Below are positions 6,488-31,458 of a stretch of DNA of 64,000 nucleotides, in pieces. The notes beneath the pieces were generated by a model. That model was not told where the DNA came from and ran no database searches. It saw only the letters and a program-made list of their open reading frames with translations. This DNA is from Azolla caroliniana (Eukaryota > Plantae > Polypodiophyta): NCBI GenBank assembly GCA_043228905.1, contig JBHGNT010000007.1, positions 17,794,001 through 17,858,000 of the forward strand, given 5' to 3'. The position numbers and the translations under genes are program-made. How positions within the stretch are numbered: position 1 is the first letter of the stretch; every line of letters begins with the position of its first letter.

Positions 6488-9448
6488 CTAATGCTTTCTT
6501 TTAGCCCAAGGAGTGATGACTGTCTTCTGATCTTGATGTTGATGCCTCCACCATCGGAACCTAAATCTCGATGCATAGATATTTGTTTTCATCAAATCCA
6601 CAGACACATGTGTCTCAACCTTAGTTGATATGGAATCTGGAGAATTTGACGAGGACAACTGAACATCAGAAGAATCAAGTATCTGGAAATCAGCTTCGTG
6701 CGTATCATCATCACCAATAATATTTTTTGGTGTCACTGCTGGACATGGCTGTTCACCCTTCGGAATCACCATTGTTGATCCTAAGCATTGATCTTGTGTT
6801 GGTTGATGAATTAAAATATTCCCTGCATGCACTTCTGCACAGCACGAGATGTAAACCAAGAATTGGACCTGAAATAAATAAAAAGAGATTCTTCATAAAT
6901 ACACTTGATTAAAAATAAATCCAACAAAAATACAAGCTTTGCACAACTTACACTCTTCAAAGAATGAATTGTAAATTCCTACCACAATTTAAACATTTTA
7001 AAGTTGAAATTATGCTTACCACAGGATGAAATGTCACGGCATTTTCACGAATTACTTCAGTAAGCTTCAGCTGCATGGCACACAATGCTTTGTTGCATAG
7101 AGATTTTGATATCGCCACCAGTTTATTCCTCAAATGAACCTTCTTCTGGTCCAAAGATTTTGAATGCTTACAGAAGAAGGGCTCTATGTACGTTTCATAG
7201 ATATAGTCTGTACCCTGAGAACAATGATATTGTAACAGTTAATACTATGAAACATCTAACACTTTTTGTGCCCACAGTGACCAAATTTGAGATTATGCTT
7301 GCCTAAAAAACATCCCAACATAATCTGAAGTTGAAACCCAGGAAAACACCATCATATACCATAGCGTTATATATATTTGTATGCCTAAACATGTGACTTC
7401 CAACAACTATGACTAACAGAAACATGTATTACAGAACTGGCTTGGATCAGTTTGCTGTTTTTTTACTAGCATATAAAATCACTCGAACTCATCTATACAT
7501 CTCAGAGGGAAAAAATGATTTATTCCGACGCACCCTTGGAAAGCATTACAGTCTGACAAAATTTGTCAACATTTTCTTAAAGGGAAGAGAAGACTCAGAA
7601 ACAAGCAACGTTGAAATTTAAGGCACAAAACGGAATCTCTATCCTTGTGAGAAATATGATAATCGATTCTAAATTATATTCCTTGCTTCCAAAAGTAGTG
7701 AAGAATCCATTACGAGATATAAACTCTTTGATCATGGCAAAACATTTGTCTCATCCACAGTTTAGTGTAATGACTATATACATACTATGTTTGTGACTGA
7801 TCATACCTTTGTATTTGGGAGCCATAGATAAACTATCAGAGCTAGTTTAGTTCCACTATAGAATGGTACCCTGCAAAGGCAATATACAGAGATTAATGGA
7901 TGTCCATAACCACCTTGCTCCTATAGAATTCTGAAGAATAAATACCATGATATAAACGTGTCTGCTACTCTCTCGACTCCAGTGAAAATGGCCATGATCA
8001 TCCTACAAGTAAAAAACGACCATCATCATATATTTAGAGAGAGCAAGAGGGAAAGACTTGAAAACAGAATCAAATACGAAAAACAAATCAAAATAGCAGG
8101 CTTCCTGGAGATATACCACAAAAGCTACACACATAAAACATAGTCACACCTAATCATCAAAACTTAGGTCTCACCTAACATGCCTAGATGATCTAAGAAA
8201 ACAGAGATGCAATGAAACAAAGTAGGTGCTTAATACTCCATGAATTTTGAGATTCGAGGATAAATGATAGATCAAGAAGAAACAAATATTCCGTAATATA
8301 GACAGGACAACTCTTCTCCTTTACATGATACGAATCAAGAGATTTATTTCATACCAATATCGACACCATGTCCGCAGCTGCTCGAATTTTGGCTTGCTAG
8401 AGTTAAGCACCGAGAAGCACATGTAAGCTGGATACAGGTATCCAAAATATATACTGAGAAAAAACACAAATAATCAACATACGAAATAGTTTCTGAAGGC
8501 GCGCAAATTCTAGTCGAAGAACAAAGATCTAAATTCATAGTTCCCTAATGTTTGTTCATAACAACAATAAATTATATAATAAGAGGAAATGTAACTTGTA
8601 CATAGAATTCTCAATAACAAGAAAATTAGAGTAAAGTGGAGGGAACGTTAGAACAACTCATACAAAATCATGAGAACATGACTTCCATCACCTTAAAAAT
8701 CAGAATTCCTATTCATTCTTCATAAATTGGGAAATTTCTGCTCATTGTCTCACAGATTCATACGAAGAAGAAATGTTGGAGTGAGAACGGCTTGCACCAA
8801 ATGGAAAAACACATTTCCATATCGTTTCTTGAGTAGATTTAACTAAGGGAAGTTACTGTGTTCTGAAAGGGAATTCTAAGAAAAAAGTCCATTAGATTCA
8901 CTAAAGCTTATGAGTAAGAATGAGAGAGGGATTTTTATGGTTTGAAGATGAACGATTTGTTATCATTTCTTCATTGAACGAACGAAAATTGTGACAGATG
9001 AAAAGGAGATGAGTAAAAGGGGGGAAGAGAGAAAGAGAGAATTATATCAGTTCCAATTCACATTTCATGAAAAAACGGATTGATTTAAATGAAGCTGTGA
9101 TCAACATAGAATTATGATAAAGAAGTTCATCAGATTGGCTGAAACGAAGGAGAAGCGGATCAATTGAAACGAATCCCATCAGGTGAATAAGATGGACATA
9201 GAATTCTGAAGGAGAAGCCCCTCAGTTGAAACTCGAGTGATGTCAAATTATAACACAAAAGACTGTGAACAAGAAGTCCATCAGATTGGCTAAAACGAAG
9301 GAGAAGCGGATCAATTGAAACGAATCCCATCAGGTGAATAAGATGGACATAGAAATTCTGAACAAGAAGTCCATCAGGTGAAACTCATGTGATGTCAATG
9401 ACATAAAAGGCTCTGAACTTACATGAAAATTCTGAACAAGAAGTCCAT
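6488..9448 (-). CDS. HVA22: HVA22-like / REEP (TB2/DP1) family protein, ~273 aa, six coding exons: 9448-9423, 8453-8355, 8002-7946, 7870-7807, 7214-7020, 6868-6488
   Basis: All introns are GT..AG with consistent phases. The spliced translation MDFLFRIFIIYFGYLYPAYMCFSVLNSSKPKFEQLRTWCRYWMIMAIFTGVERVADTFISWVPFYSGTKLALIVYLWLPNTKGTDYIYETYIEPFFCKH matches the HVA22g/h/i/j-type TB2/DP1 domain. The acceptor of the last exon is less certain. Confidence 0.88.
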
Positions 9449-11803: not shown

Positions 11804-14800
11804 TGTCGTGAAGATTTTCGTCCATAGGCGGAAACTAGGGTGGAATAGGCAAATCGGTGGTGTGCACCATGTGCACATGTATACTAGGAAATGGTGTATA
11901 GAAATAAGAGGGGGAATTTTATCCCACATTGTAAGGTCCCTCCCTCCTTGGGCTATAAAAGGAAGGGAGGGGTCACTTATGAAGGGGTTGCCTATTTTGA
12001 GGAAGAGAGGCATACCACTTAGGTCGAAGGTTTCCTATTTGGTTTTAGGGTTTCGGTTAGGGTTTTCTTCTTGGGTTTTCCTTTAGGGTTTTCTGATAGT
12101 CGTTTGGTGCGGCCATGGCGGCCACCATTGTAAAGCGTTTATGTTTCCGTAAGCTAACTTGTTGAGCATCTTGCCCCGTCTATTCTATGTTATTGTCTTA
12201 TTCTTTCTCACCTCCTCTTGAGCTAAGCTTCCATTTTGTGTCTTATTCTTTCTCCTCTACTCCCTAGTCCAAGACCCCCGTGGTCCTGCCCCTTCTACAC
12301 ACATGCGCGTAACAACGCGACATCTTTGGTGAACCCGACGTGAAGGGCGGCAAGGGAGCATGGAGATGGAAGAAGACTTCGACTTCAAGGAGATGATGGC
12401 AAAGATCGTGATGGAAGCCGGACGGAAGATGGTGAAGCGAGATGCGGCTCAACAAGTCGTCGAAAGGGTGGTCGATTGAGTCGGCTGGTTCAATGGGAAT
12501 GAGGTCCTAAAAATTTTGGGAGCCTACAAGGCCGATATGGCGAAAGGGGGCGTAGACGAGGCAATGCGGCTAGAGTATTTTCCTCGAGTGGCGGTCGTAT
12601 CGATGACCAAGGAGGTCAAGGAGCTACGAGAAGCTCATGAGTCGTGGGTGTCCTTTGAGGGAGCCCTATTGGAGGCGTACGGGTACACCGAACCGGAAGG
12701 AAGAGGTCGACATGAGTTCGATCGGTGGGTGTGCCGGCAACATGATGCGAGGCGGTTGGCCACAACACGGCCCGCGAGCGACGGAGAAGAGAGAACGGCG
12801 AGTGAGTACGCACTACCGCCGGAAGAGAGCTCAACGCAAAACGGTTTGGAGGAGCTCGACCTAGAGGTGCTAATACGGGAGGCATGCGAGCTTGTGAAGG
12901 CGAAAATCGGAACCGAAGAAGGGCTTATTATGGAGTCGGGCCGGAGGCGATCGAAGGATGCGGAGGAAGAAGCCTCCCTAAGCGTAGAAGACAGGGCCTA
13001 TACGGAAGTCGGAAGAGCGTACGACGGCGACATAGGAGAGGGTGCGGAGCAAGCGACCCTCTTGCCTTGCGGTGAAGGGACGGCCATGGAGGCTGGTAAC
13101 TACAGATTCGGGACATGGCGGCCAGAAACATCGAGTGGGGAGGAGACAAGCGGCGGTGCCACGACCTTACACACATCGGTCCTAGAGGCTCCGGCGGTTG
13201 GCCCGAGTGCTGGCGTGAGACCTAGAGCGACGGGCGGTGGCGGCGGCAAGGCGGGAAACCGAGACGTTGACATGGAAGAGACGGCGACAAGCGTAATCGA
13301 GGCTTGCGCGATCAGAGGTGGGGTGGCCGCAGACAACTATGTCCGGACGGAGGCGGCTACGGACACAACAAGCGGTGGTGCCGGGTCCTTACCCACACTG
13401 GTCATAGAGGCTCCGGCGGTCGGCCCGAGTGTCAGCGTGTCCTAGAGCGACGGGTGGTGGCGACGGCAAGGCGGGCGACTGAGACGAGGACAAGGACGAG
13501 GAGGTAGCAAGCATAACCGAGGCTTGCGTAACCGGGGACGAGATAGCCACGGACCACGGCGTCCGAACGAAGGTGGCTACAAACATGACATCGTCGAGTG
13601 ATGGTACCGAGACTTTTCCCGCACCTATTCTAGAGACTTCGACGGTCGGCCCCGAGAGCCCACGTGAGACCGGAGAGACGGAAGGTGGCGACGGCAAAGC
13701 GGACGATCGAAACGACGACGACGAAGGTCATAGCGGACGGAGGAGAGACTCCTCGACACCAGGGCCGGAGACTAACGGCGGTTGCATTCGAATGCCAACA
13801 TAAGACCGGAGAGAAGGGCAGTGGTTGTGAGGAGGCGTGGCTCGGAGCGAACACGTACGAAGATGAGGATGCGAGGCCCGGAACAGGCATGTACAAGAGG
13901 ACCGACAGAGAGGCCGAGAGCGGAAAAGAGGAGAGAGTCGGGAACCGACCCGACCGAAAGATGAACCGGTCGATAATCCGACACGATCGGAAGACGACGT
14001 GGAAGAAGATTGGAGCGGGGTCCGGTCAACCGGGCCCGAACCGAAGAAGAGCCGGCAAGGCCGGATTTGTTTGGACAAACATGTACCGGCCGGTTACGAT
14101 TACGGAAGGGAGCCGACCAAACCGGAACTCGATCGGCCGAGACCGATCCGGGCGAAGGCTAAGTTGGCATGATTGGAGGTCGAGGTGAATGGGCCACAAC
14201 ACCCGGTGGGAGCCGGTGAGCGCGAGAAGGAAGCTAACCGGGCACGGTGATTACGGCTTGGCGGAAGACCGAGAGCAAGAGGAACCCTCCACACCTATTC
14301 TTGAGACTTCGGCGGTTGCGGATCAACATAAGACCGAAGAGACAGCGGGTGGCGGCGAGGAGTCAGAGACCGGAACGGACGAGGCTACTGGAACGGGTAC
14401 CCGGTGCGTGAAGACGGACGAGCACAGCCCAGACGGCAAGCCGGAGTCGGAAGGGGCTACGGCAACAAAAGACGAAGAGATCGACGCAGAGGTCGGGTCT
14501 ACAGCGGATGAGGCGCGTAATACGAAGTATGCACTACGACGTAAAACGGAGCATGCAGTACGGCCGGCAAAGGGCCAAGAAGTAAGCATGCACCCGGAAG
14601 AGCGGCAATGAGTGACCGACAACGACGGACCGGTCGAGCCTTTGAGAGGCAAGCATGCGGCGAGAGACGAAGCCGTAAGGTGCCGGGATTGGCGGATGGG
14701 TGGCGAGAGCGAAGGATGGTGCGCGGAGAACAACGGGGTACACACTGGGAAGAGAAAACGCGGCGGCTTCCCAGAGGGCATGCAAGGCCAAGCGGGCCAA

Positions 14801-16536
14801 GAGAGCGCAAGTCGAGGCGAGGCGGTAACGAGAGCCTCGAGGGACACTGACACGGAAGTCAGGATGACGGTACGCTCTACGGCGAGAGAGTACGACGGGC
14901 AAAGGAGAGGCAAGGAACGCGGAATGGGGTCGCCTAAGGGCCAAAGAATGAGCGCATATTCAGGGGACAACATTGGTGCACGAGAAGAGCCTATGGAAGG
15001 CAAGCGCGGAGTAGGAAGAGTCGACACGCCGAGGTGTTCGGCATGTAGAGACGATAAAACCAAAGGAGGAACATACGTGCCATGAAAAGGGCGGAATCCA
15101 GAGTGCGATCGGAGAGATCGGGAGCACACCCGGAGGACATACGAGCCTTTGCGAGGAATGCACGCAGCGAGAGATAGAGCGGTGAGGTGCCGGTATCGGC
15201 GAATGATCGGCGAGCATGGAAGGCTATGTCTTGAGAACTGGAGGAGGTTTGTGGAGAGCAACGGGCTACGCGCTGGGAAGAGGAAGCGCAACGTCCCGGA
15301 AGGCATGCGAGGCCAAGCGGGCCAAGAGGACGAGAGTCGGGATGAAGCGGTAACGGGAGTCGCGAAGGACACAAGCATGGTGGTCAGGATGACGGTATGC
15401 TCTACGACGAGAGAGCATGGCGAGCAAAGGAGAAGCGAGGAGCGCGTAATGAGGTTGCCGAGGGACCGAAGAACGAGCGCATGTTCAGGAGACAACAAGG
15501 GCACACGGAAAGAGCCTACGGAAGGTGAGTGCGGAATGGAGGGAATCGGCACGAGGTGTTCGAGACGAAGAGAGGATCGAGCCGGAGATAGAACACAAGC
15601 GGTACGCGAGGGGTGGAATCCGACGAGCAAACGGGGTGACCGAGGGCCTAATCGGAGGACCTACGTGGCGGACAAAGAAAGAGTGACCGGATCGGCAATG
15701 GCGTTCGGGAGGACCGACCGGGGAGGAAGGCGCGTGCGGTGGATATGGCGGTTCGGATGGAGTCTATGTTTCGGGGACACACGGTGGACGTGGTGGATCG
15801 GTTGGAGCCGTCGACTCGAGGACGTGCGATGGATACGGTGGAACAGGATGCTACGACGGTTCATGTGGAAGGGACGGGCATGCTCGAAATGGAAAACGAA
15901 CCCGAGCAAGGCCAACGAGGACACGACGGACCTCTGTTTTATCACCATGGCCGAAAAATCTCACCTCTTCTCCTTTCTTGGCACATACCGGTGGATGTGC
16001 GGTTTCGTGGGGGCGGATGTCGTGAAGATTTTCGTCCATAGGCGGAAACTAGGGTGGAATAGGCAAATCGGTGGTGTGCACCATGTGCACATGTATACTA
16101 GGAAATGGTGTATAGAAATAAGAGGGGGAATTTTATCCCACATTGTAAGGTCCCTCCCTCCTTGGGCTATAAAAGGAAGGGAGGGGTCACTTATGAAGGG
16201 GTTGCCTATTTTGAGGAAGAGAGGCATACCACTTAGGTCGAAGGTTTCCTATTTGGTTTTAGGGTTTCGGTTAGGGTTTTCTTCTTGGGTTTTCCTTTAG
16301 GGTTTTCTGATAGTCGTTTGGTGCGGCCATGGCGGCCACCATTGTAAAGCGTTTATGTTTCCGTAAGCTAACTTGTTGAGCATCTTGCCCCGTCTATTCT
16401 ATGTTATTGTCTTATTCTTTCTCACCTCCTCTTGAGCTAAGCTTCCATTTTGTGTCTTATTCTTTCTCCTCTACTCCCTAGTCCAAGACCCCCGTGGTCC
16501 TGCCCCTTCCACACGCACGTGCGTAACAACGCGACA
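11804..16536 (+). mobile_element. Non-autonomous Ty3/gypsy LTR element (Ylt1-like group); LTRs 11804-12322 and 16018-16536; gag remnant only, no pol
   Basis: 519-bp near-identical LTRs (TGTCGTGAAG..GCGACA). PBS TGGTGAACCCGACGTGAA at 12327-12344; PPT-like GTGGGGGCGGA before the 3' LTR. A gag-like stretch at ~12470-12730 (LEYFPRVAVVSMTKEVKELREAHESWVSFEGALLEAYG) is homologous to the gag at 40027-42153. The rest is GC-rich tandem repeats. Confidence 0.9.
12327..12344 (+). promoter_or_regulatory. Primer-binding site complementary to the 3' 18 nt of cytosolic tRNA-Trp
   Basis: Reverse complement TTCACGTCGGGTTCACCA matches the plant tRNA-Trp(CCA) 3' end as recalled; the identical PBS is at 42176-42193 (-). 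Confidence 0.8.
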
Positions 16537-19332
16537 TCTTTGGTGAACCCTAGTTGAACATTCTACCAAACTTGGGCTAGAGTTTCCTCCACACACATGT
16601 TAAACCACACCATCCTCCTTCTATATATTGCCAAACACTGGGTTTGTCTGCATGTTCTACCTTTAACTCCTCACATATCACATTGAATGCGGATTCAATA
16701 ATGCATTGCATCAATTGGCATATTCGTTGATAAATATGGCTTCTCTGAGTTGCACTTACTTTTGGCAACAAGTTGTCTACCCATGACTTTTTGGCGTGAA
16801 ACTGACACAACAAAAGTTGACAATGTCTTTGCAATCATTGCCCATTTACAACAATCCAAGATTGACGGTCTGTTGCAACCACATTAGTTATGGCATTATA
16901 TGATGTCCAACATTTATCAATCACTATTGCATTTGGCCTCACCGTGGGCATCCTTGCGAATATGACTCTCAAACAAGTTTCTAATGCAACTTGCTCATGT
17001 TTTGACCCCTTATTAGAACTACAAAGCATGTACCATAATGGGATCCCAATTTCCATGGCGTTAGGGGTAACTGTTGCATATAATGGTTGCCCGAATTGGT
17101 TTGTTTTAAATGTCGAGTCAATTGCCCAAGAGTTGTTTAGGGTCAACCACTCACACATTTCCAACATCCGTTGATCTTAAAGTATCAAGATAAATGGTTG
17201 TTTGGCGGGAGATCCTTGTTCACCAGCCAGGAAGGGTTGAACATGAGCCACTTTCCCAAGATCTCAAAGTGCACAGGCATCTTGCATCATCAAAGCCCAA
17301 TCAACTTTAGTCATGGCACTCCCGAATTTAAACCTATTTGCCATGTTATGGGCCTCCTTTGGTATCATAAAGAATTGATAGCTAACAAGCTCTAATGAAC
17401 TAGCCTTGGACTTATGATATGCTTCCTTACGCATGCTCATTCGTGCCACATGCCTTGCACACCCAACATCAAATAGGTCATCTTCGCAACAACTTATGAC
17501 ATTGGGGTGTACTGGCAAATGGTACACATCCAACCCACTACATGGTACATGACCATTATGAGGTCCATATATTGAAATGGTAAGTGTCTCATTGTCAACA
17601 CCGTCATTCATTCTAACGTCCACATGGAATGTGCACCAACATCGGGGTGTGCACCTGCGTCGTCGAGTGGAATTAGATGCAAGTCGAGATGTCCCAGCAC
17701 GATGGCAACTATACCTAGTCACGCGCATACCCTTCTTGACTCCTTTCCTTAAACGTGTGTGGTACTTGGTTTGCAAATCTGTGAATGCATCATCTAATTG
17801 GTGGGTTTCTACCTTGATCACTTCTATGGGTAGGGTCTTGTTATATTTGTCCATGCTTGATCCCAAACCTTCTATCGGTCTGACCTTCAATACCATTTGG
17901 AAACCACAACTTGTAATGAGTGCTTTTACGCACTCCGATGGGATGCCATAATCACGTACATCAGTCGCATAAACTAGCTTAAACTCTTTAAGAGTCTTTG
18001 AAAACGTGTGGTGGGATGTGTCACCATATGACGCTCATACTACTTCCCTCCATTTCTTGATGTATAATACTTGAAGATTAGGTGATACTTTAAGGTAAAT
18101 TGCACTCTCATTCCCGAGTATGAGACGACTCTTCATGCGCTTCCATGCATGAAGTGAAAGAGGTGCTCCCCTCGCGACATCACGTAATGCTTCCAATGTT
18201 ACCTTAACTTGTCCCAATAAATCTTTAACCATCAAATTATGCATACCTCTTGAAAATGCAAAATACCTAGGGGAACAATACATGAAGGGATCGACCGCCT
18301 CATCCTCGTGATCGGAATTTGATGACTGAAAAGGAATCTCCAATTCATCCTTAGATACAAATGATGCATTGGACGACCATGACGTTGTCGCGGAAATCCA
18401 CGCGTGCTTGTCGGATAGGATGGGACCACAGGGGTCTTGGACTAGGGATTAAGAGGAGGGAGAGAAGCTTGGGAGTTCAATCGAGAAGGAAGAGAAAGGT
18501 TAAGATTCAAGAGATTAAGATTCAAGAGAATAAGATCTAAACAAGACAAGATACATTATGGAAAGCACCACACCAATTACAGCCGTGGCCGTGTAGGTCG
18601 AATGTAAACCCTCTAGATGAAACCCTAAGCGGATAGGGGAAAAGAAGAAGAAGAAGAAGATGATGAAGATGAAGAAGAAGAAGATGAAGATGAAGACGAA
18701 GAAGAAGAAGATGAAGATGAAGAGGAAGAAGATGAAGATGAAGAAGAAGAAGAAGAAGAAGAAGAAGAAGAATGAAACCCCTAAAACAAGATCCTAAAAC
18801 CCAAAATTCTGAAACCCTAATGGCAACCCAAAGAAACCCCAAAAGTGGAAGCCCCTCCTCACTCAAAATAGGTAACCCCTTCACAAGAGACCCCTCACTC
18901 CCTTTTATATAGTAGTAAGGGGTGAGGCACATTACAAAAGGAGAGGTTAAATCCCCTTCTTTCAATGGGGAATATTTTTCCTTGATCTTAAATCAGTGGG
19001 CCTTTAACTCTCTCCCCTCTCACATTCACACTCAATGCCCACTGTCATAACTAGACTCGAACCCATAACCTTTTGTTACACGGGTCGAGACTTTACCATT
19101 AGGTTATAAATTGTAATTTGAAGGATATTATTTTCATTTAGGTTTTATTGGGAAATTGATGTATATTCCAGATTTCTCTGGAACATTCTAGAAACTTCAG
19201 GAGTATTCCTGAAGACACTATAAAAGGAGGCGCAAGGCATTAGTTCGAACCAAATCGGTTCAACGCCAGTCTTAAGCCTTCTAACTACTGTTGTATATCT
19301 TCCTTCATATAATACATATACCTTTCGCATCA

Positions 19333-19390
<58 letters not shown>

Positions 19391-19626
19391 ACCCATTCCT
19401 TCTCTCAAAGTTCGACACCTCTCATAGTACTAATCCTTCTCTGTCTTAGTACTATTCCCCGACAATAGTACTAATCCTTCTTTTAGTACTAATTCCTTCT
19501 CTGCCTTAATAGAGTTCCTGACAGTTTGAACCGATTTTCCTCGGTGCCTGTCTGGTCTTTTCTCTCCCTCTTCCTTCTGTCTCCCTCCTTTCCTATTAGT
19601 CTCTTATTTTCCTTTTCCTTCATCCC

Positions 19627-20796
19627 ATGGCCACCGTTAGCGCTGAAGAGTATCAATCCGTTTTCTCGGAATTTCAATGCTTGAAAGAGAAGTTTCATGC
19701 TTTGGAACAAGAAAATCAACGCTTGTTGGGGGATCTTCAGCAAATTTCCTTAGAAAAGCAGCAAACGCAACAACAGCATGGGGAACTTGCGTTACGCGTG
19801 CAACAACTCGAAGCAACCATCGTAGCAATGCAACAACAAGGGCACGGAGCACAAGGGATTCATAAAGAACCCAAGATTGGCCTTCCCACGAAGTTTGATG
19901 GAACGCGATCGCAGTTTAGAGGGTTTCTTAACCAGGTACGGTTAGTTATTCAAATGCATCCGTCCCGATATCCCACCGATGCATCACGAGTGGGTTTAGT
20001 AGGCACGTTGTTAAATGGCTCAGCATTAGCATGGTTCGCTCCGCTACTAGAAAAGGAATCTCCAGTACTAAATAATTTTGAAGAATTCATAAATGAGTTT
20101 AAAGCATGTTTTGGAGATACTGACAGCATAAGGACTGCAATCAACAAAATCCGGCGATTACGCCAAGGTGACCGTCCAGCCTCCGCATATGCTGCAGATT
20201 TCCGCCTACTCGCCGCCGATATCCCCTGGGATGATCAAGCATTGATGGAGCAGTTCCGCTATGGTCTACGCAACGATGTCAAGGATTTACTCTTGACTTT
20301 CCCTGAAGAGCCAAAATCATTAACAGAAGCAATCAGTCGAGCGGTCAGATGTGACAACCGCCTCTTCGAGCGACGTTCGGAACGACAATTTCAGATGCCG
20401 AGGGCAAGATCCGAGCCTACCTATGCCTCAGTGGTAGCAAAACCTTTTCAAAGGGAGTCACATAATGCGCCTCCAGTAAGTACTCCAACTCCAATGGAAA
20501 TTGACACTACACGTCGTCGTGGGCCGCTATCGGAGGAGGAAAAGCAATGACGCCGAACAAACCGATTATGCCTTTATTGCGGTGGACCAGGGCATATCGC
20601 GATAAACTGTCCCCATAGACCAAGAAGGCAGGTAAACCAAGTCGTTGTTAGTTCTGACTATACTAAACCCGAGTCTATTTCAGTAGGAATCTCTGATAGT
20701 CCTCATAGTCATAATAGTCCTAATAGTACTAATAGTCCGAATCTCGCAAACAAATTTGATGTCCTTAGCCAATTAGAAGAAGAGTTAAACGACTAA
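19627..20796 (+). CDS. gag: Chromovirus Gag (coiled coil, capsid, CCHC knuckle) with one internal TGA at 20548-20550
   Basis: EPKIGLPTKFDGTRSQFRGF capsid motif and PTPMEID; after the TGA the frame continues RRTNRLCLYCGGPGHIAINCP to TAA at 20794-20796. Confidence 0.88.
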
Positions 20797-23700
20797 GTCC
20801 AGCCAAAATAGGAGCCGTTTGGTTGGACAGCCCTAGATCTGTGCAGCCCATTAGTGGTTCCATTCCCTCTAAGCAAGTTAGTGATGTGTTCGTAGCCCAA
20901 GTAGCAGTTAGTACTAAAAGTACCCCTCCAGTACATACCTTAGCCCTTCTAGATTCCGGAGCTAATTCTTGCTTCATGGATAGGAATTTTGCCCGAGCTC
21001 ATCAGATATCTCTCAGAAAGCTCCCATGTCCAGCCTCAGTAGTAGTCATTGATGGTCGTCCCATTGCTTCTGGTAATATCATAGAAGAGTCGGAACCCGT
21101 TAATATTGTCCTAGATAACTTAACATGTGTAGTATCATTTAATATTATTAGTATTCCAGAACATCCCATAGTTTTAGGATTACCATGGTTCGAGTTACAT
21201 AACCCAGACATAGATTGGAGGACAAGGGAAATCCGGTTGCGACAAACCCAAGGATCTACCCAGAAGGTTGCAACCATTTCGCTACGTCAGTTGCGTGAGG
21301 AAGGGCGCAAGGAGGAAATGTTTCTCTTCGCAATATCAGTACAACCCTCCAGTACCACCAAAGAGGAGTCCACCGTTCAACTTCCCGAGAAGTATCGTCA
21401 GTATGCTGATGTGTTCGATAAAGTACAAGCCAACACACTTCCTCATCATCGGCCGTACGATTGCGCCATCGACTTACAACCGGGAAAAGAGCCGCCATGG
21501 GGGCCGATCTACAATTTGTCACCAACCGAGCTAGAAGTCCTTCGAGCCTATATAGAGGAGAATTTGGAGAACGGTTTCATTCGGCATTCGAAATCTCCAG
21601 CCGGCGCACCCATTTTCTTCGTCAAGAAAAAAGATGGCTCGCTTCGACTCGTTGTAGATTACCGTGGCTTGAATAAGGTCACAGTAAGAAATAGGTATGC
21701 TCTTCCCCTTATCTCAAGTCTTTTAGAACGGATCAACGGTGCCAGGTTCTTCACGAAGATCGACTTACGAGGAGCCTATAACCTCGTACGGATCCGACCA
21801 GGAGATGAATGGAAGACCGCGTTTCGCACCAGATATGGGCACTTCGAGTATACGGTCATGCCGTTCGGACTCACTAATGCGCCGGCAGTCTTCCAGCACA
21901 TGGCGAATGATATATTTCGAGATCTCTTGGATGATTTTTTGATCATCTACTTGGATGATCTACTGGTTTATTCAAAGACCCAAGAAGAACATGATTCTCA
22001 TGTACTATTAGTACTAAAACGACTTCGAGAACATGGTCTGTATGCAAAGTTAGAGAAATGTAGTTTCGGGTGCAACCAAGTGGAGTTTCTCGGCTATGTC
22101 ATCTCCTCAGAAGGCATATCTATGGACCCAGCCAAGGTCAAAACGGTGATAGAATGGCACACTCCGCGTTCGGTGCGGGATGTGCAATGCTTCCTAGGCT
22201 TTGCAAATTTTTACCGGAAGTTCATACAAAATTACTCAAAAATTGTGCTGCCTCTCACACAGCTCACCAGGAAGGGACAATCATTCCTTTGGTCTAAAGA
22301 GACGGACATGGCTTTCGAGAGTCTTAAGAAGGCGTTTACATCAGCTCCAATTTTAGGTCATGTGGATCCGGAAAAACCATTCATTATCGAAGCTGACGCA
22401 TCGGATTTCGCATTGGGGAGCATTCTGTCACAACAGGGTAACGACGAGAAGCTACATCCTGTGGCTTTCCACTCCCGTAAGTTTGACGCCGCCGAAATCA
22501 ACTACGAAATTCATGATAAAGAGCTATTAGCAATAGTTGATTCTTTTATGCAATGGAGGCATTTCCTGGAGGGATCTCCTCATCAGGTCACTGTATTCAG
22601 TGACCACAAGAACCTTGCCTACTTTCAAGATGCTCGTGTACTGAATCGACGTCAAGCTCGGTGGGCCCACTTCCTCACACGCTTCGACTTCAAAATTACA
22701 TATCGTCCGGGGAAGCACCAAGGGAAGGCAGATGCATTATCACGGCGTTCGTATCTAACACCACGTCCCGGTGAGCCAGCTTTCGATAACCAGAAGCAAG
22801 TAATCTTGGGTCTAGCACGACTGCAAGCAGCACAGGTCTTTGACATGCCCGTGGATTCCGACATTACCAATACTATACGTGAGGACTTGAAGACTGACGC
22901 TTTCGCCCAAGCTATACTAGCACAAATTGACCCCTCTCGAGCGTCATGTTCACAATCACAATCACCAGGTACGGATTATCGGCAATTCAAATACTGTGAT
23001 GGATTACTCTTCTTTAAAGAACTTTTGTATGTTCCTAATGGTTCTTGCCGCCTTCGAGTAGTACAAAACTGCCATGACACATATACAGCAGGACATTTTG
23101 GTAGTACTAAAACATTAGATTTAGTACAACGATCATTCTGGTGGCCCCGTATGCGACAATTTGTCGAAGATTTTGTTCGGACTTGCGATACATGCTGCAG
23201 AGCGAAAATGCCAAGACATCATCCATATGGTTTATTAGAACCATTACCAATTCCAAGCAAGCCATGGCAATCCATTGCTCTTGACTTCATTACAGATCTT
23301 CCAGTCTCTAAGGGATTCAGTGCGATTCTCACAGTGGTGGATCGATATACAAAGATGGCTCATTTCTTACCATGTACTAAAGAAATATCTAGTGAAGACA
23401 CCGCCGCAATTGTCATGCGGGAAGTATGTCGGCATCATGGACTCCCTGATAATATCATCAGCGATCGTGGACCTCAGTTTGTGTCAAAATTCTGGAAGCA
23501 CCTTTTTAAAATGCTGAAGGTCACTTGTCACCTCTCCTCCGGCTACCACCCACAAACCGACGGTCAAGCTGAACGAACAAATCAAACACTGGAGCAGTAT
23601 CTGCGGTGCTTTCTCAACTATCATCAGAATGACTGGGCAGATATTCTTCAGTTCGCCGAATTTGCCTATAATAACGCTATCCACGCATCGACTAAAGTCA

Positions 23701-24380
23701 CGCCATTCTACGCTTATACAGGATATCATCCCCGGTGGTGTGTCCTTGAAACCCCAGAAGTGTCCACAAATCCTTGCGCGGAGGATCGTTTGGAGCGGTT
23801 ACGCAAGATACAAGCGGATTTATCTACTCAACTCCAGCAAGCTCAACAATCACACAAGGACTACGCAGATCGTCATCGACTTCCATCCAGTTTTAACATT
23901 GGAGATCGGGTGTGGCTGCTACGACGACACATCAAGACTACTCGCCCATGTGAGAAGTTGGATTATCGGCGATTAGGTCCTTTCCGTATTATCGGGAAGA
24001 TTAATGATGTCGCTTTTCGTCTCGAGCTACCTCCGCAACTTCGGATACATCCGGTGTTTCATAGTTCTCTCCTCGAACCCTATCACGAGAGCACTATCCC
24101 AGGACGTACTATACAACCACCACCTCCTATCGAGCTCGAAGATGGACCTGAGTATGAGGTCGCTGCCATCCTCGATTCCAAGATTGTTCGCAACAAGCTC
24201 TACTATCTAGTCGATTGGCTAGGATATAGTCCCAGCGAGCGTACTTGGGAACCGATCGAGAATGTGACCAATGCTCGTGCTCTTCTAGAAGACTTCCATC
24301 AACGATATCCCGAGAAACCGGGTCCTCAATCCAAAACGACTCGTGGAACTCGTCGTTTTAAAGGGGGGATAGTGTCATAA
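20784..24380 (+). CDS. pol: Chromovirus Pol (PR-RT-RNaseH-IN-chromodomain), in the -1 frame relative to gag
   Basis: Uninterrupted ORF with LLDSGANSCF, YLDDLL, EADASDF, HHCC plus DDE integrase, GPF and EYEVAAILDS..YLVDWLGY..TWEP chromodomain. Confidence 0.95.
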   Translation, partial: VKRLSPAKIGAVWLDSPRSVQPISGSIPSKQVSDVFVAQVAVSTKSTPPVHTLALLDSGANSCFMDRNFARAHQISLRKLPCPASVVVIDGRPIASGNIIEESEPVNIVLDNLTCVVSFNIISIPEHPIVLGLPWFELHNPDIDWRTREIRLRQTQGSTQKVATISLRQLREEGRKEEMFLFAISVQPSSTTKEESTVQLPEKYRQYADVFDKVQANTLPHHRPYDCAIDLQPGKEPPWGPIYNLSPTELEVLRAYIEENLENGFIRHSKSPAGAPIFFVKKKDGSLRLVVDYRGLNKVTVRNRYALPLISSLLERINGARFFTKIDLRGAYNLVRIRPGDEWKTAFRTRYGHFEYTVMPFGLTNAPAVFQHMANDIFRDLLDDFLIIYLDDLLVYSKTQEEHDSHVLLVLKRLREHGLYAKLEKCSFGCNQVEFLGYVISSEGISMDPAKVKTVIEWHTPRSVRDVQCFLGFANFYRKFIQNYSKIVLPLTQLTRKGQSFLWSKETDMAFESLKKAFTSAPILGHVDPEKPFIIEADASDFALGSILSQQGNDEKLHPVAFHSRKFDAAEINYEIHDKELLAIVDSFMQWRHFLEGSPHQVTVFSDHKNLAYFQDARVLNRRQARWAHFLTRFDFKITYRPGKHQGKADALSRRSYLTPRPGEPAFDNQKQVILGLARLQAAQVFDMPVDSDITNTIREDLKTDAFAQAILAQIDPSRASCSQSQSPGTDYRQFKYCDGLLFFKELLYVPNGSCRLRVVQNCHDTYTAGHFGSTKTLDLVQRSFWWPRMRQFVEDFVRTCDTCCRAKMPRHHPYGLLEPLPIPSKPWQSIALDFITDLPVSKGFSAILTVVDRYTKMAHFLPCTKEISSEDTAAIVMREVCRHHGLPDNIISDRGPQFVSKFWKHLFKMLKVTCHLSSGYHPQTDGQAERTNQTLEQYLRCFLNYHQNDWADILQFAEFAYNNAIHASTKVTPFYAYTGYHPRWCVLETPEVSTNPCAEDRLERLRKIQADLSTQLQQAQQSHKDYADRHRLPSSFNIGDRVWLLRRHIKTTRPCEKLDYRRLGPFRIIGKINDVAFRLELPPQLRIHPVFHSSLLEPYHESTIPGRTIQPPPPIELEDGPEYEVAAILDSKIVRNKLYYLVDWLGYSPSERTWEPIENVTNARALLEDFHQRYPEKPGPQSKTTRGTRRFKGGIVS

Positions 24381-24662
24381 CTAGACTCGAACCCATAACC
24401 TTTTGTTACACGGGTCGAGACTTTACCATTAGGTTATAAATTGTAATTTGAAGGATATTATTTTCATTTAGGTTTTATTGGGAAATTGATGTATATTCCA
24501 GATTTCTCTGGAACATTCTAGAAACTTCAGGAGTATTCCTGAAGACACTATAAAAGGAGGCGCAAGGCATTAGTTCGAACCAAATCGGTTCAACGCCAGT
24601 CTTAAGCCTTCTAACTACTGTTGTATATCTTCCTTCATATAATACATATACCTTTCGCATCA

Positions 24663-24720
<58 letters not shown>

Positions 24721-25559
24721 ACCCATTCCTTCTCTCAAAGTTCGACACCTCTCATAGTACTAATCCTTCTCTGTCTTAGTACTATTCCCCGACAATAGTA
24801 CTAATCCTTCTTTTAGTACTAATTCCTTCTCTGCCTTAATAGAGTTCCTGACACCCACTACTCCCTATGTCACCCATTCTTCATGTACTTTCCTGTAGTC
24901 TACAAAGTGCACATTACCATTATGCCTCTACGAACCTCGTGGTGCACCTTTAGCACCTTAGATTATTACCCTTCCCCTTACATTTTGTTATCTTATTCTC
25001 ATTATACAAATTTACAAGTGCATCTGCAATGTTGCACATCCCCATTTTATTTGTCTCACCCGAGTTTCTCACCATAGCCGGAAATCTTCACGACAACGTA
25101 TCCTCCAATTCATCTTCCAACATGGCGAAGACACCATGATGCATTGTGCTCTCCATAACAAATACAATATGATCGAGAATGCCAGTGATTGAGGTGAATT
25201 AAGTGAATGTGAGAGATATGCGAATGAATGAAGTGAATGAATTCAAATGAATTCAAATAATTCAAATAATTCAACTCTTCTTCAATGATTTAGTTCGAGA
25301 ATGTTTAGGGCTATTAGTGCACGATCGAGAATGAGGGTGAATGAAATGAGTGCGAGTGATTAATAGACTGTTAAGGAAGGGAATGAGTTCAGTCCTTTAG
25401 TGATTGAGTCTACCTCTTAGTGCATGCTATTGAATTTGGTGAATCAATTTGTTGTAGTTGTTAGTATGATCATTGAAACGCCATCATTACACGTAGTTGG
25501 GCAATTGACTATTAATGAGTTGGGCTCCTCGTTAATCAGTCGGGCTTCCTACACCAAAA

Positions 25560-25977: not shown

Positions 25978-27537
25978 AAATAACCCTATGCCCAGAGTCC
26001 TTTGTGTCCATTTTGCCATGATTTTCCGAAGGAGCTCCACGTCTTCAAATCCAAACCATTGCTCCTTACCCTACACCACAATATGCCATCAACCTAAGCC
26101 CTTACAAAAACAAATGCGCAAATTCAATTCTCATAAATACTTACAAATTGATCGGTCTCAAATCCTTGAATGAACTCCTCGACCAACATTTGAATGGTTT
26201 ACATCATGTAATACCCACAATCATTCCCATTAGGTTGGGTTGGGATATGCAATACCTGGAACCGCTCGTTGTTGATGATCCAATGGTCATGTGTGGCGCT
26301 AGAGATATATCAGACAACCAAATCACCCAATGTCTTCATGCCGGTAGTTGGATGATTATTTAGTGGATCGCAAAAAACAATTGGATTTGGATTTTAGGCC
26401 TCCTTGGCTGTCAGGTTGTCGATTCTGACAGTTGGTCTTGACCACCATTGATCTCGACATGTGCCTCATCTTCTGGCATGGGAATTCCATGATTCTTACA
26501 CTAAAATTCATACATAAGATTCACACATAATCATTCACACACTAGATTTAGACTCACATAAGATGCACACATAATCATAAACCATACTTACATAAGCTTC
26601 AGACGTAGCCGCAATCTTCAACTTCAATTTTGCCATCCTATGCTCCTTTCCCCCGTCATACCTAGCCATCTATTGGCTGACGAATTGGGCAATGAAATAG
26701 GCCTCCTTGGATGTTCGAAGTGTGTCCGGAGTGGCTTTGAAGATCTTAATCTCTCTTGTCCTCAACTTCCTCATGTGTGATTGGCGTGATCTATTGTACT
26801 TTAGCTTCGTATCCAAAAAACGCTTTATTGATCGTTTTCTTTCGTAGTGGCTGAAGAATGACGTGGTTGTACTCCTCATGGAGGTCGATTGATCTTCTTC
26901 TTCTATCTTTAGCCACCGAGGCAGTATTACTGTCATAACTAAACTCGAACCCATAACCTTTTGTTACACGGGTCGAGACTTTACCATTAGGTTATAAATT
27001 GTAATTTGAAGGATATTATTTTCATTTAGGTTTTATTGGGAAATTGATGTATATTCCAGATTTCTCTGGAACATTCTAGAAACTTCAGGAGTATTCCTGA
27101 AGACACTATAAAAGGAGGCGCAAGGCATTAGTTCGAACCAAATCGGTTCAACGCCAGTCTTAAGCCTTCTAACTACTGTTGTATATCTTCCTTCATATAA
27201 TACATATACCTTTCGCATCATCATTCTCTCTCTCTCTCTCTCACTCACCCATTCCTTCTCTCAAAGTTCGACACCTCTCATAGTACTAATCCTTCTCTGT
27301 CTTAGTACTATTCCCCGACAATAGTACTAATCCTTCTTTTAGTACTAATTCCTTCTCTGCCTTAATAGAGTTCCTGACAATTACACGGATGCCATGTGCC
27401 TTTTGTAAGTGAGCTTCCATGTCAGCTTTTTTGCGAAACCATCGTACCTCTTTTCTACATGAATCTCCAACGATACATGTGCGACATTTGATACTTGTCG
27501 AGTCTCTTCCCGCCTTGAAGAGGGACATAGGGTCCAC
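25978..27537 (-). pseudogene. MULE accessory gene: C2H2-like zinc finger followed by a Ulp1/C48-like protease C-terminal half; intron-containing and disrupted
   Basis: KCRTC..F.KKADMEAHLQKAHG at 27537-27385 continues in frame after the solo LTR is removed. Downstream are IVFCDPLNN and LHIPTQPNGNDCGYYMM (~26250-26200), then WFGFEDVELLRKIM after a GTAAGT intron. In-frame stops are present. Confidence 0.6.
26931..27379 (+). mobile_element. Solo LTR of the same chromovirus family as 19043-24853
   Basis: 449 bp, near-identical to the 481-bp LTR apart from a shorter (CT)n and one substitution; TSD ATTAC at 26926-26930 and 27380-27384. Confidence 0.95.
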
Positions 27538-28004: not shown

Positions 28005-31000
28005 TTTTTCTTCTTTTTTTTAACAAAAGATACACCCTGGTATTATAAAATCAGAAGAAATACAAAAGTTGATGGTTGTTTCAGTGAGAAGAAGAACCCC
28101 ACCAAAACAAAGCTAATGCTAACCATAAATTCATCCATCCATTCATGAAGAGAAAGGGACCTAAAAACATTTTTTATTCATGGATATTTGCAGTCTCCAT
28201 GCCGTTGAGAGATGGCTGAAATAATACTTTGGACATCGGAATCGTTGTACACCTGTAGTTATCTCTCCATTCCACAATATATAACATTTCAGCTTGACAA
28301 CTTTCCGAGCAGTTTTTGTGGTTTGAAAGGAGCACCACATTTAACATACATGTTGATCAAAACAATTGCTACATATGAGCTTTTCCCAACAACCCTCACA
28401 AAGACTAGAACCCTCAAAAAGATCCTTCCACCAAGCACAATATATGCATCATAGCCGATTTGTTGAGCATCGTCAGCAATAGCAGCAACTTTCCAGAGCC
28501 ATTCCTCATAGTCGATTTGATGTGTATATGCAAGAACAACACATATTTGTACACCATATCTCCAAGATTTTTATCGTCTAGTCCTCCCAAACTGCAATTG
28601 AGCATTCAATGTAACCTATAGCACCCAAAATCTATAGCAACAGAATGTCCATAAACAAAGTTAGTAGACATTGTTTCCCAAAATGACGGGAACAGTATAC
28701 ATCCAAATTATGTGATCTCCATCTTCCCTAAAAATGAACATAGAGGTCCATATCCTTTTAAAATGCATTTGCTTCCTGAAAATGGCATCAACATTTCTTG
28801 TGAAACTTTCATACTGACCACGTAATGTATGAACAAATAATAACCAGAATTCAGTGATTATAACAACAGCATCCTGAGTGACATTATCAAATATTGATGC
28901 GCATCGCGCTTTCCAAATTACCCACATCAGAATAGATGAAATTTTCTTCCATACAATATCATCCCTAAATTGCAAACTGTCACTTATAAAAGGTTGAACG
29001 ATTTGTATATGAGGAGGAACTATGTGAAAAGCTTCCACTATATCCTCCTTTTCATATAACTAGAGATGACCCTCTAGAATGCCCCACCTAACCACACCCC
29101 AAGTGACCACACAATTAGCAGGTATCAATATCAACCTTAATACTCTTTGCCATATTTGCATACTTTTAGGACAAGACCACAATACATGCTTAATTGATTC
29201 TACCATACATCCACAACCAAAACCACATGACTTACTATCTAATTGTCGCAACTAAGCCCGAACTGGTCGTGCATAATGGATCAATAACCAACGAAAAAGG
29301 ACAATCTTCCTAGGAATCTGCATACTCCATAACCATTTCCAATATTTAGATGCATCCATTAAAGAGGCTCCATTCACCAACCACACTTTCATAGCAGATG
29401 GCGGATGGAATTTCCTACTTAAGAGCAACTTTCATCCCAACTTCATAGAATATTGGAAAAATTGAAAAAATTTAGTATGAGACGAAGGATTTGTATGTTT
29501 CCAAAGATAATCTGATGAATCCCAATGCAAGTCCAACAATGACTTTTAAAAAAAAACCCATAGTTGGCAAAATAACATACTATCAGAAGGAGAAGGATCT
29601 AAAATCCATTTTTTACCGTTTGCCAAATTGACGATTCCACATCAGTCTGCCATAATCTTCCTTCCTCAGACACATCAAAATAGTAATAATCTCCTTGAGA
29701 TGTTGTTCCTTTTACTCCTATAATAACACCAACCAGAGTAAAATATCCAAACCAAACATGCTCAAAAGAAGGTGACCAATTAGAGAGAAAATTCCCTAAA
29801 GATGATTGAATTTCATCAAACATAACTCTAAAACCTCTACACATGGTAGCATCTAGCTATGAATTATTCAGATGAAGAACATAATTTTCCCAAGAGGCAA
29901 TCGTGGCAGCTATAGCATTATCCAACATAGCCCACTATAATCACGGTCTACTGCCAAGCAATACACTCCCTTTTATCAGAAAAAATAAAATTCTAAATCA
30001 AAGGTTCCCACAATAGTTCTTCATTCGAAGAGGGGCATCTACGAATCAAAAAAACCTTAACAGCTTCCCATGCTTTACAAATGCCAACCATAAAACCATC
30101 TATCAGACCATGTATCAGTCTCATCTTAAAATTTGACAAGAATGCCCATCTTAGAGATGGTTTCCAAAACCCCCCGGTAGACGGTTTAACATCAAACAAT
30201 CGATTTAAAAACAATTCTAACCATATACCTTGAGCAGGCGACATAGCCCTAACAACAAAGTTTGCCAAAAGAGCCTTACATTGGCTGTCTAGGTCTACCA
30301 ACCCTAAACCACCATTTGAAAATTGCGTCGTAAGTGTCGACCAAGCTACCTTTGCACGAGCATCATTATTACTTCGTCCTATCCAAATAAAGTTTTGAAC
30401 CATTCGTTGAATGTGTAACAAACAGGATCTAGAGAACAAACATGTAGATGCTATATACCACATCGATGAAAGTAGAACTTGATTAGCTATCATTACTCTG
30501 CCTGCTAAAGACAACTCTGTAGTGTCCCAAATCAACACTTTTTTCCTAAGTGATAACATTAGAGGAGCTAACAATCGCTCATTATTCATATTTATACCAA
30601 CTTGACATCCTAAGTAACGAACTGAAACTCCTTGAATCCAACAAAAAAACTCAGATGGTCTCCATGATGGCAATGGCCGCTTCGAAACCCAAAAACCCAC
30701 TGATTTACACCAATTAACTTTTGCACCAGAGGCAACAAAAAATGTTTCCAATGCAGCTTGTGCTTTATACAAATTACCTTCTTCAGTGCGCAAGTATAGT
30801 GTTGTATCATCTGCAAACTCCACATCTAGAATCATCTTGTTAGAGATCAGTGCGACCAACCCTTGAATCCCAGCACTTGTTGAATTTAAAATTGCTAAAA
30901 ATACCTCCGTAACAATAAGAAATAAAAAAGGGGCTAATGGACACCCTTGGCGAACAGATCGTGACATTTGAAAGCTTCGTCGTCTACCTCCTGCTACTAA

Positions 31001-31458
31001 GATAGAACTATAAGCTAATCTATATAAAGCTGACACTGCAATAATCCAAGCTTCTGGAAACCCTAATCTTCTCATCGCCTCTTCTAAAAAGTCCCAATTC
31101 ACTCTATCATAGGCCTTTTCAAAATCTAACAATAAAATTACTAAGTCCTCTTTCTTTGCCATAGCTGACGCGGACAACTCCCAAAACAAAAAAATATTAT
31201 CAAATATAGTCCTATCTTGCATGAAACCTATCTGAGAAGTATGAATAATATCAGGCAATAAAGGTTGCAAACGCAGTGCCAATACCTTAGCATAAATTTT
31301 GTATACTGTATTGAGTAATGTGATTGGTCGCCATGCCCTAATGTCCTCTGAGGCTCCATTCCCTTTAGGGATAAGAAAAATCAGCCCCTCCTTCCATTCC
31401 TCTTGCATAACTCTTGAATAAAAAATGATCTCAAAAGCACTAGTTAAATCATCAGCTA
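28005..31458 (-). mobile_element. 5'-truncated L1-type LINE (RT, zf-RVT, A-rich tail)
   Basis: ORF 29993..31408 has WRPITLLN, LDFEKAYDRV, RQGCPLAP and FADD; CGFGCGCMVESIKHVLWSC at 29060-29251; T-rich tail at ~28005-28021. 16-bp TSD taattgtatca(a/t)tctt at 27989-28004 and 31459-31474 (one mismatch). Confidence 0.92.

What the first reader, a model, noticed from the sequence alone, without database searches (positions are those of the whole stretch)
19219..19537. tRNA-independent self-priming signal (Tf1-type) in a plant LTR retrotransposon
Seen: no TGG-type PBS follows the 5' LTR. Instead TTGAACCGATTT (19526-19537) is the exact reverse complement of AAATCGGTTCAA (19252-19263), which lies 33 nt downstream of TATAAAA (19219), at the expected transcription start. 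Established: S. pombe Tf1 and related chromoviruses prime minus-strand synthesis with the first ~11 nt of their own mRNA, released by RNase H. Inference: this element self-primes, which fits a fungal-like Tcn1/Tf1 lineage rather than the Met-tRNA-primed seed-plant chromoviruses.
Basis: partly seen in the sequence, partly recalled or inferred. Interest (0 to 1): 0.7.

Follow-up and report, generated by a model that had tools for sequence, protein, structure and literature searches.

The report
Self-priming jumping gene leaves copying scars
A young plant jumping gene has no tRNA landing site and very likely starts copying itself with the first 12 bases of its own RNA, a route already predicted for its moss relatives, and scars in its genomic copies likely mark both ends of that primer.

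Summary
Observation confirmed. The window holds a young 5.8-kb chromodomain Ty3/gypsy element (identical 481-bp LTRs). Two bases after the 5' LTR, a 12-mer exactly complements an LTR 12-mer 33 nt after TATAAAA. The pair covaries between subfamilies: 42 of 52 elements pair 12/12, in three sequence types. Best match among 37 host tRNAs is 9 nt. Added here: (1) the PBS is nearly invariant in 94 copies while the next 2-7 bases form 31 variants, as expected if reverse transcriptase runs off the primer's 5' end; (2) in 59 rearranged copies the R-U5 copy begins at RNA nt 11-21 in 18 and at nt 1-10 in none, fitting a cut after nt 12; (3) Tf1's flanking 'pretzel' helices are not conserved; (4) 42 of 53 LTRs carry an outward-facing tRNA-type A/B-box pair of unknown activity. 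The host is likely a fern, where a PCR survey found no Tcn1. No RNA data were available, so the start site is inferred.

The parts
19038..19042 (+). left target-site duplication (CCCAC); right copy at 24854-24858
19043..19523 (+). 5' LTR, 481 bp, TG...CA, identical to the 3' LTR
19053..19063 (-). B-box-like motif of a tRNA-type (Pol III) promoter, facing out of the LTR; activity untested
19096..19106 (-). A-box-like motif, 37 nt from the B box, as in host tRNA genes (36-38)
19219..19225 (+). TATA box, 33 nt before the self-primer
19243..19251 (+). end of U3, predicted to fold back on the 12-mer when both lie in one strand ('anti-primer' hairpin)
19252..19263 (+). predicted self-primer = first 12 nt of the RNA; predicted cut between 19263 and 19264
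19524..19525 (+). 2-nt spacer GT between LTR and PBS (GT in 49 of 53 elements)
19526..19537 (+). primer-binding site, exact complement of 19252-19263
19538..19542 (+). hypervariable bases directly behind the PBS (31 variants of 2-7 nt in 94 copies, hand count)
19627..20550 (+). gag (capsid domain); the frame stops at 20548-20550, ahead of the zinc knuckle, in this copy
20784..20828 (+). predicted -1 frameshift signal between gag and pol: heptamer, 6-nt spacer, 11-bp stem
20769..24380 (+). pol open frame: protease, RT, RNase H, integrase, SH3, chromodomain
24360..24369 (+). polypurine tract
24373..24853 (+). 3' LTR
26931..27379 (+). solo LTR of the same family with its own 5-bp target duplication (ATTAC)

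Best explanation
This is a recently inserted chromodomain Ty3/gypsy retrotransposon whose primer-binding site complements a 12-mer of its own LTR, and it very likely starts reverse transcription with that 12-mer as fission-yeast Tf1 does. Shown: the element's anatomy, the complementarity, its covariation between subfamilies, the constant TATA spacing, the variable bases behind the PBS, and the rearranged copies. Inferred: Pol II starts at 19252; nt 1-12 pair with the PBS; the element's RNase H cuts after nt 12; the 12-mer primes the minus strand and stays attached; the plus strand copies it and runs off its 5' end, adding a few untemplated or upstream-templated bases that get fixed behind the PBS. 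Because the PBS would be recopied from the primer each cycle, it follows changes in the LTR. Also inferred and weaker: a hairpin with the end of U3 hides the 12-mer wherever U3 precedes it.
For: Covariation: at the TATA-defined position 42 of 52 elements pair 12/12 (18, 15 and 9 elements in three sequence types), 3 have one G-U pair, 2 pair over 11 nt in a fourth type, 5 have 1-2 mismatches; 1 of 53 could not be placed. The types follow RT clades in the main. Three metagenome relatives (51-66% RT identity) keep the same layout with other sequences. tRNA: best match 9 nt, 8 nt for type C. 5'-end scar: 3 changes in the spacer and PBS of 94 copies found by flanking anchors, against 31 variants directly behind (hand count); among 32 near-identical copies, 323 of 353 pairs with at most 2 differences in 450 nt of gag differ there. 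In 30 ordinary copies with GG behind the PBS, 23 match the upstream U3 for 3-5 nt, as starts a few bases upstream would give. 3'-end scar: in 59 independent rearranged copies the R-U5 copy begins at nt 11-21 in 18, at nt 1-10 in 0, beyond nt 21 in 33, and inside U3 in 8; about 3 would fall in an 11-nt bin if uniform. Tf1 is reported to keep a PBS copy at the cDNA 3' end and to add untemplated bases (PMC11042837 passages) and to be cut between bases 11 and 12 (PMC7175516 passage).
Against: No RNA 5' end was measured. The tRNA set was partial (37 distinct genes from 30 loci), and a tRNA-Asn T-loop matches 9 nt starting right at the LTR end. The flanking 'pretzel' helices needed by Tf1 are not conserved: only the window's leader beat shuffles (8 of 200) among 12 elements tested, one of them mis-anchored. 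The base behind the PBS is an invariant C in 22 of 22 type-C elements, so that scar is not universal. The nt 11-21 bin was chosen after seeing the first 39 junctions; the second 20 alone gave 3 against 0 (p = 0.14), and endpoints carry 1-3 nt of uncertainty. The tRNA-primed control family had only 3 copies. One close metagenome relative (L284) has two differences between 12-mer and PBS. The four primer types differ at only a few positions and come from one genome.
Confidence: 0.93

Rival explanations
1. A tRNA fragment ending in the T-loop primes at this site, and the LTR match is secondary.
For: tRNA-Asn(GTT) genes match 9 nt, 19524-19532, starting at the LTR end; the PBS resembles the complement of a T-loop; the tRNA set searched was incomplete.
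Against: The match is shorter than the 12-nt self match and fails for type C (8 nt, 4 nt off) and for the metagenome types; a host primer would pull the PBS back to the tRNA, yet it follows each element's own LTR; the pile-up at nt 11-21 is not predicted.
Confidence: 0.03
2. The 12-mer primes, but from another source: the copy in the 3' LTR of the RNA or a longer transcript, with the real start elsewhere (for example at nt 13).
For: Molecules in which a whole U3 is fused to the 12-mer and then to the reverse complement of U5-R exist (47 of 1,698 A/B junctions, 26 of 211 type-C junctions); an RNA starting at nt 13 would also give the pile-up at nt 11-21.
Against: The fused molecules are a minority, and in most the U3 runs to the exact LTR start, as PPT-primed DNA does; variation starts exactly behind PBS position 12, which marks a primer 5' end at nt 1; TATA spacing of 32-33 nt fits nt 1; in types A and B the hairpin would hide the 12-mer behind U3.
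Confidence: 0.03
3. A transcript from the tRNA-like A/B-box unit in U3 serves as primer through its B-box bases.
For: By inspection the window's B-box can pair with 19524-19532 using three G-U pairs (sequences).
Against: The pairing is weaker than the 12-bp self duplex and breaks in type C; it would need a cut inside the B box; metagenome relatives self-match without the boxes (L261).
Confidence: 0.01

Closest known systems
Plant Tcn1 chromoviruses (REXdb; Neumann et al. 2019, PMC6317226: passages and one supplementary table row; Novikova et al. 2010, PMC2864245: passages)
   Same: 5-bp target duplication, size in range (5,811 bp against 5,466-9,444), chromodomain with aromatic residues at the cage positions, gag and pol in different frames, no tRNA PBS, self-complementary PBS (predicted for 83% of 1,500 Tcn1 elements).
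   Different: Reported from mosses and club-mosses; a PCR survey of 26 ferns and horsetails found none, whereas this host is likely a fern. Those papers, in the passages read, give a BLAST prediction only: no covariation, primer-end scars or A/B boxes.
Tf1/Tf2 of Schizosaccharomyces pombe and the Tf1/sushi group (PMC7175516, PMC11042837, bioRxiv 10.1101/2022.12.06.519325: passages)
   Same: The 5' end of the RNA complements the PBS; a cut behind the primer; a PBS copy and extra bases at the cDNA 3' end would explain the scars seen here.
   Different: 12-nt primer, not 11; the two flanking 'pretzel' helices are not conserved; two reading frames; a U3 hairpin over the primer in some subfamilies.
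TRIMp3 elements Helenus, Ajax, Cassandra (Kojima 2024, PMC10886601: parts 1-4 of 6 read)
   Same: tRNA-type A and B boxes inside an LTR, kept as motifs while the cloverleaf is lost.
   Different: Helenus is non-autonomous, under 1.3 kb, and is thought to be transcribed from the boxes. Here the element is autonomous, has a TATA promoter, and the boxes face outward at the very 5' end of U3. The paper notes that other Repbase LTRs hold tRNA-like pieces but analysed TRIMs only.

Membership tests
Ty3/gypsy chromovirus | PR-RT-RH-IN order with a C-terminal chromodomain | tested here: met
Tcn1 clade | RT/RH phylogeny with named Tcn1 elements | tested here: inconclusive
   RT-RH groups with Rhizopus and metagenome relatives (FastTree support 0.91), apart from seed-plant and algal proteins (0.995), but no named Tcn1 sequence was available
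Tcn1 clade | chromodomain with aromatic cage | tested here: met
   Y, W and Y at the cage positions by inspection of the translation; cage positions recalled from HP1, not aligned
Tcn1 clade | 5-bp target duplication and 5.5-9.4 kb size | tested here: met
   40 of 53 perfect 5-bp duplications, 48 of 53 with at least 4 matches; 50 of 53 sizes inside the range
Tcn1 clade | at least 10 nt of LTR complementary to the region 0-5 nt after the 5' LTR (Neumann criterion) | tested here: met
   12 nt at offset 2
Tf1-type self-priming | [quoted passage not shown] | tested here: inconclusive
   indirect only: TATA spacing and variation behind the PBS; no RNA reads
Tf1-type self-priming | RNase H cut directly behind the primer | tested here: inconclusive
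   indirect only: 18 of 59 endpoints at nt 11-21, none at nt 1-10; the enzyme is not shown
Tf1-type self-priming | primer and PBS covary between families | tested here: met
Tf1-type self-priming | three-helix 'pretzel' around the primer-PBS helix | tested here: not met
   no flanking helix beat shuffles across 12 elements, except the window's leader at 8 of 200
tRNA-primed plant chromoviruses | PBS starting TGG, complementary to a mature tRNA 3' end | tested here: not met
TRIMp3 / Helenus | short non-autonomous element | tested here: not met
   5.8 kb with gag and pol
TRIMp3 / Helenus | A and B boxes at tRNA spacing in the LTR | tested here: met
   42 of 53 LTRs, spacing 37-38; 3 of 3,990 control windows; 2 of 12,000 shuffles
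TRIMp3 / Helenus | Pol III transcription from the boxes | not testable with these tools
   no raw RNA reads served

The most novel reading that the evidence does not exclude
This lineage has rebuilt the Tf1 self-priming LTR. It drops the pretzel, masks the primer with a U3 hairpin wherever U3 precedes it, and keeps an outward-facing tRNA-type promoter at the LTR tip as a working TFIIIC/Pol III site that shields its TATA promoter in heterochromatin or makes an antisense RNA over the polypurine tract. It would be an autonomous LTR retrotransposon with both a Pol II and a Pol III promoter, and its genomic copies would record both primer ends at base resolution.
Probability: 0.3. Interest if true: 0.72.

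Novelty: new variant of a known kind. Interest (0 to 1): 0.48.

Why it matters
Self-priming has been tested at the bench in fission yeast and predicted by complementarity for plant elements. Here genome copies alone give two further, indirect signs: a mutation hot spot where the primer's 5' end would be copied, and an edge at nt 13 in rearranged copies. The same two tests could be run on any proposed self-priming lineage without RNA. A likely fern host would extend the Tcn1-like group beyond mosses and club-mosses, which bears on the horizontal-transfer debate. If the A/B boxes are active, they add a regulatory layer that I did not find described for autonomous LTR elements.

Tried and rejected
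RNA evidence: no RNA holder listed; contigs of four runs laid on 19043-19330 and 19390-19700 cannot show starts or ends. ARAGORN on the window and Rfam on 18900-19700 found no tRNA or convincing family; the T-stem around the B box is degenerate in 6 of 6 subfamily representatives, so the unit is not a tRNA. Pretzel helices: not conserved. tRNA-primed control for the hot spot: 3 copies only, uninformative. A/B boxes in metagenome relatives: none in 7 paired LTRs or 11 PPT-anchored LTR starts, none in L261; one relative (L259, 69% RT identity) shows a similar pair at spacing 38 by eye. Cap-templated C: 16 of 23 copies with GGT behind the PBS continue with C, too weak to claim. No named moss, club-moss or Cryptococcus Tcn1 protein came up. 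Two primary Tf1 papers (Atwood-Moore 2005, 2006) are not held and are known to me only through PMC11042837. Of 101 elements examined, 62 gave an LTR pair with TG/CA ends and 55 were kept (53 self-matching, 2 tRNA-primed); the rest had no LTR pair or mis-called ends. The careful tree did not finish; quick trees were used.

Full report
1. Observation. They belong to an element at 19043-24853 with identical 481-bp LTRs, a CCCAC target duplication, gag, and a pol frame with protease, RT, RNase H, integrase, SH3 and chromodomain. The gag frame of this copy stops before the zinc knuckle; frames of 351-389 codons were read in the 3 of 6 other copies where the start motif was found. A match of 12 nt arose in 2 of 20,000 shuffles.

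2. Host and lineage. The window lies in a 523-Mb assembly. Of 120 listed relatives of a neighbouring PPR gene, about 69 are named from the ferns Adiantum and Ceratopteris, 16 from Cryptomeria (including the top three by score), 10 from Diphasiastrum, 1 from Typha, and 24 carry no organism (hand count; 33-48% identity). A fern is likely, not shown. The RT-RH is 61% identical to the representative of a cluster with Rhizopus-named members and 42-49% to seed-plant and algal proteins. In a FastTree tree it groups with the fungal-type proteins, apart from seed-plant, algal and this genome's Met-tRNA-primed elements. No named Tcn1 protein was available.

3. Covariation. I fetched 100 of 150 capsid hits in the genome. 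With the window's element, 62 of 101 gave an LTR pair and 55 were kept. In 52 of the 53 non-tRNA elements the TATA-defined 12-mer could be compared with the PBS: 42 pair fully, in three types (18, 15, 9); 3 have one G-U pair; 2 pair over 11 nt in a fourth type; 5 have 1-2 mismatches. TATA spacing is 32-33 nt where it could be measured. The types follow RT clades (78-100% identity) in the main, with two exceptions in one clade that pair through G-U. Three of 80 metagenome relatives show the same layout with other sequences; most contigs lack a full LTR. One close relative, L284, has two differences.

4. tRNA rival. A mature tRNA needs TGG, which is absent. Against 37 distinct tRNA genes from 30 loci, the best match is 9 nt (tRNA-Asn T-loop, from the LTR end), 8 nt for type C. 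The set is partial: it lacked the initiator tRNA that the control elements use.

5. Scar at the primer's 5' end. A search anchored on both flanks found 94 copies. Spacer and PBS carry 3 changes in all, while the 2-7 bases behind them form 31 variants (hand count). Among 32 near-identical stored copies (partly selected by the PBS pattern), 323 of 353 pairs with at most 2 differences in 450 nt of gag differ at this spot. Tf1 cDNA is reported to keep a PBS copy at its 3' end and to gain untemplated bases (PMC11042837, passages), which would produce this. Of 1,698 type-A/B junctions, 78 continue with GG. Among the 56 of these not already fetched, 30 are not fused; 23 of the 30 match the complement of upstream U3 for 3-5 nt, mostly 3, as starts at the purines at -3/-4 would give. 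A brief fold-back explains this equally well. Against: type C has an invariant C behind the PBS in 22 of 22, followed by a (CT)n run, and the tRNA-primed control was too small.

6. Scar at the primer's 3' end. In some loci the PBS runs straight on into the reverse complement of U3, mostly to the exact LTR start. Read on the other strand they are U3, the 12-mer, then a minus-strand copy of U5-R that jumps to another place. Of 74 such loci I dropped 1 ordinary element, 4 duplicates and 10 unmapped. In the remaining 59 the R-U5 copy begins at RNA nt 11-21 in 18, nt 1-10 in 0, beyond 21 in 33, inside U3 in 8; about 3 are expected per 11-nt bin. A template whose first 12 nt have been removed predicts this edge. 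The bin was chosen after seeing the first 39 (15 against 0, p = 6e-5); the second 20 gave 3 against 0 (p = 0.14). How these molecules form is inferred: a PBS-ended strand pairing with R nt 1-12 of the plus-strand strong-stop DNA.

7. RNA structure. The primer-PBS helix is predicted at -12.5 to -14.5 kcal/mol and competes with a local leader hairpin in the window's copy (pair probability 0.55-0.96 by fragment). Tf1's two flanking helices (bioRxiv 10.1101/2022.12.06.519325, passages) are not conserved. The end of U3 folds on the 12-mer in types A and B (-6.6 to -12.2 for the local fragment) and, with other letters, in two metagenome relatives (-17.6, -19.1), but hardly in types C and D (-0.1 to -1.6). 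Fused junctions are 47 of 1,698 in A/B and 26 of 211 in C. That fits masking, but it is a two-lineage comparison and only a lead.

8. tRNA-type boxes. On the minus strand of the first 140 nt of the LTR, 42 of 53 elements have an A-box-like and a B-box-like motif 37-38 nt apart, as in the 5 host tRNAs that my expression caught (36-38); controls gave 3 of 3,990 windows, 2 of 12,000 shuffles and 0 of 2 tRNA-primed elements. The expression was written after seeing the motif. The boxes persist between subfamilies whose LTRs give no BLAST alignment in that region, while the T-stem has decayed; ARAGORN and Rfam see nothing. Most metagenome relatives lack them. Function is untested.

9. What is known. 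Neumann et al. 2019 (PMC6317226; passages and one supplementary row) predict self-priming for 83% of 1,500 Tcn1 elements from mosses and club-mosses. Novikova et al. 2010 (PMC2864245; passages) found no priming signal in SM-Tcn1 and no Tcn1 in 26 ferns and horsetails by PCR. Kojima 2024 (PMC10886601; parts 1-4 of 6) describes tRNA-like LTRs in non-autonomous elements. PMC8282616 (passages) added nothing on ferns. I found no paper on the two scars, on fern Tcn1 elements, or on A/B boxes in autonomous chromovirus LTRs in ten searches (listings read, only the papers named here opened). Subscription journals, the primary Tf1 papers and bioRxiv supplements were not visible, and fern genome papers may list Tcn1 in supplements. 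This scan has 303 earlier notes with the words self-priming, retrotransposon and Tf1 in at least 39 genomes, none matching this LTR by sequence.

10. Verdict. The feature is real and self-priming is very likely (0.93). It works like Tf1. It is not filed as a full Tf1-type member because the pretzel test failed, and Tcn1 membership is likely but unconfirmed by phylogeny. The core claim is already in print as a prediction; the scars, the likely fern host and the LTR boxes make it a new variant. Interest 0.48.

Noticed in passing
window 19053-19106 (minus strand), repeated at 24383-24436: tRNA-type A/B-box pair facing out of the LTR, kept in 42 of 53 related elements; no cloverleaf.
   Followed up: partly
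window 20784-20828: Slippery heptamer, 6-nt spacer and 11-bp hairpin at the gag-pol overlap; the heptamer was found in 17 of 46 elements in the window scanned, probably a -1 frameshift signal.
   Followed up: partly
L213, L220, L223, L224 and 70 further loci in G000: Rearranged copies with U3 fused through the 12-mer to an inverted U5-R; some are nested in other copies or duplicated (L213, L225, L226).
   Followed up: yes
window 19424-19491: Two strong hairpins built from repeated TAGTACTA palindromes in U5 (pair probability above 0.9); role unknown.
   Followed up: no
window 35765-42901 (minus strand): A second Ty3/gypsy element without chromodomain; its 704-bp identical repeats seem to include a TGG-type PBS inside the repeat, which suggests a tandem or permuted arrangement.
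   Followed up: no
window 11804-16558: A related element with 541-bp repeats (98.7% identical) and the same unusual sequence before the 3' repeat; no Pfam hit in its two long frames.
   Followed up: no
window 2382-4484: PLS-type PPR repeats whose named relatives are mostly from ferns.
   Followed up: partly
window 29993-31477 (minus strand): 494-codon frame with an RT domain, probably a LINE fragment.
   Followed up: no
L127 and other type-C elements: The PBS is followed directly by a (CT)n run starting with an invariant C, and the primer contains an 8-nt palindrome.
   Followed up: partly
L181-L194, L198-L200: Host tRNA genes lie in single-type clusters (Lys-TTT, Ile-TAT, Arg-TCT) with several degenerate copies.
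   Followed up: no
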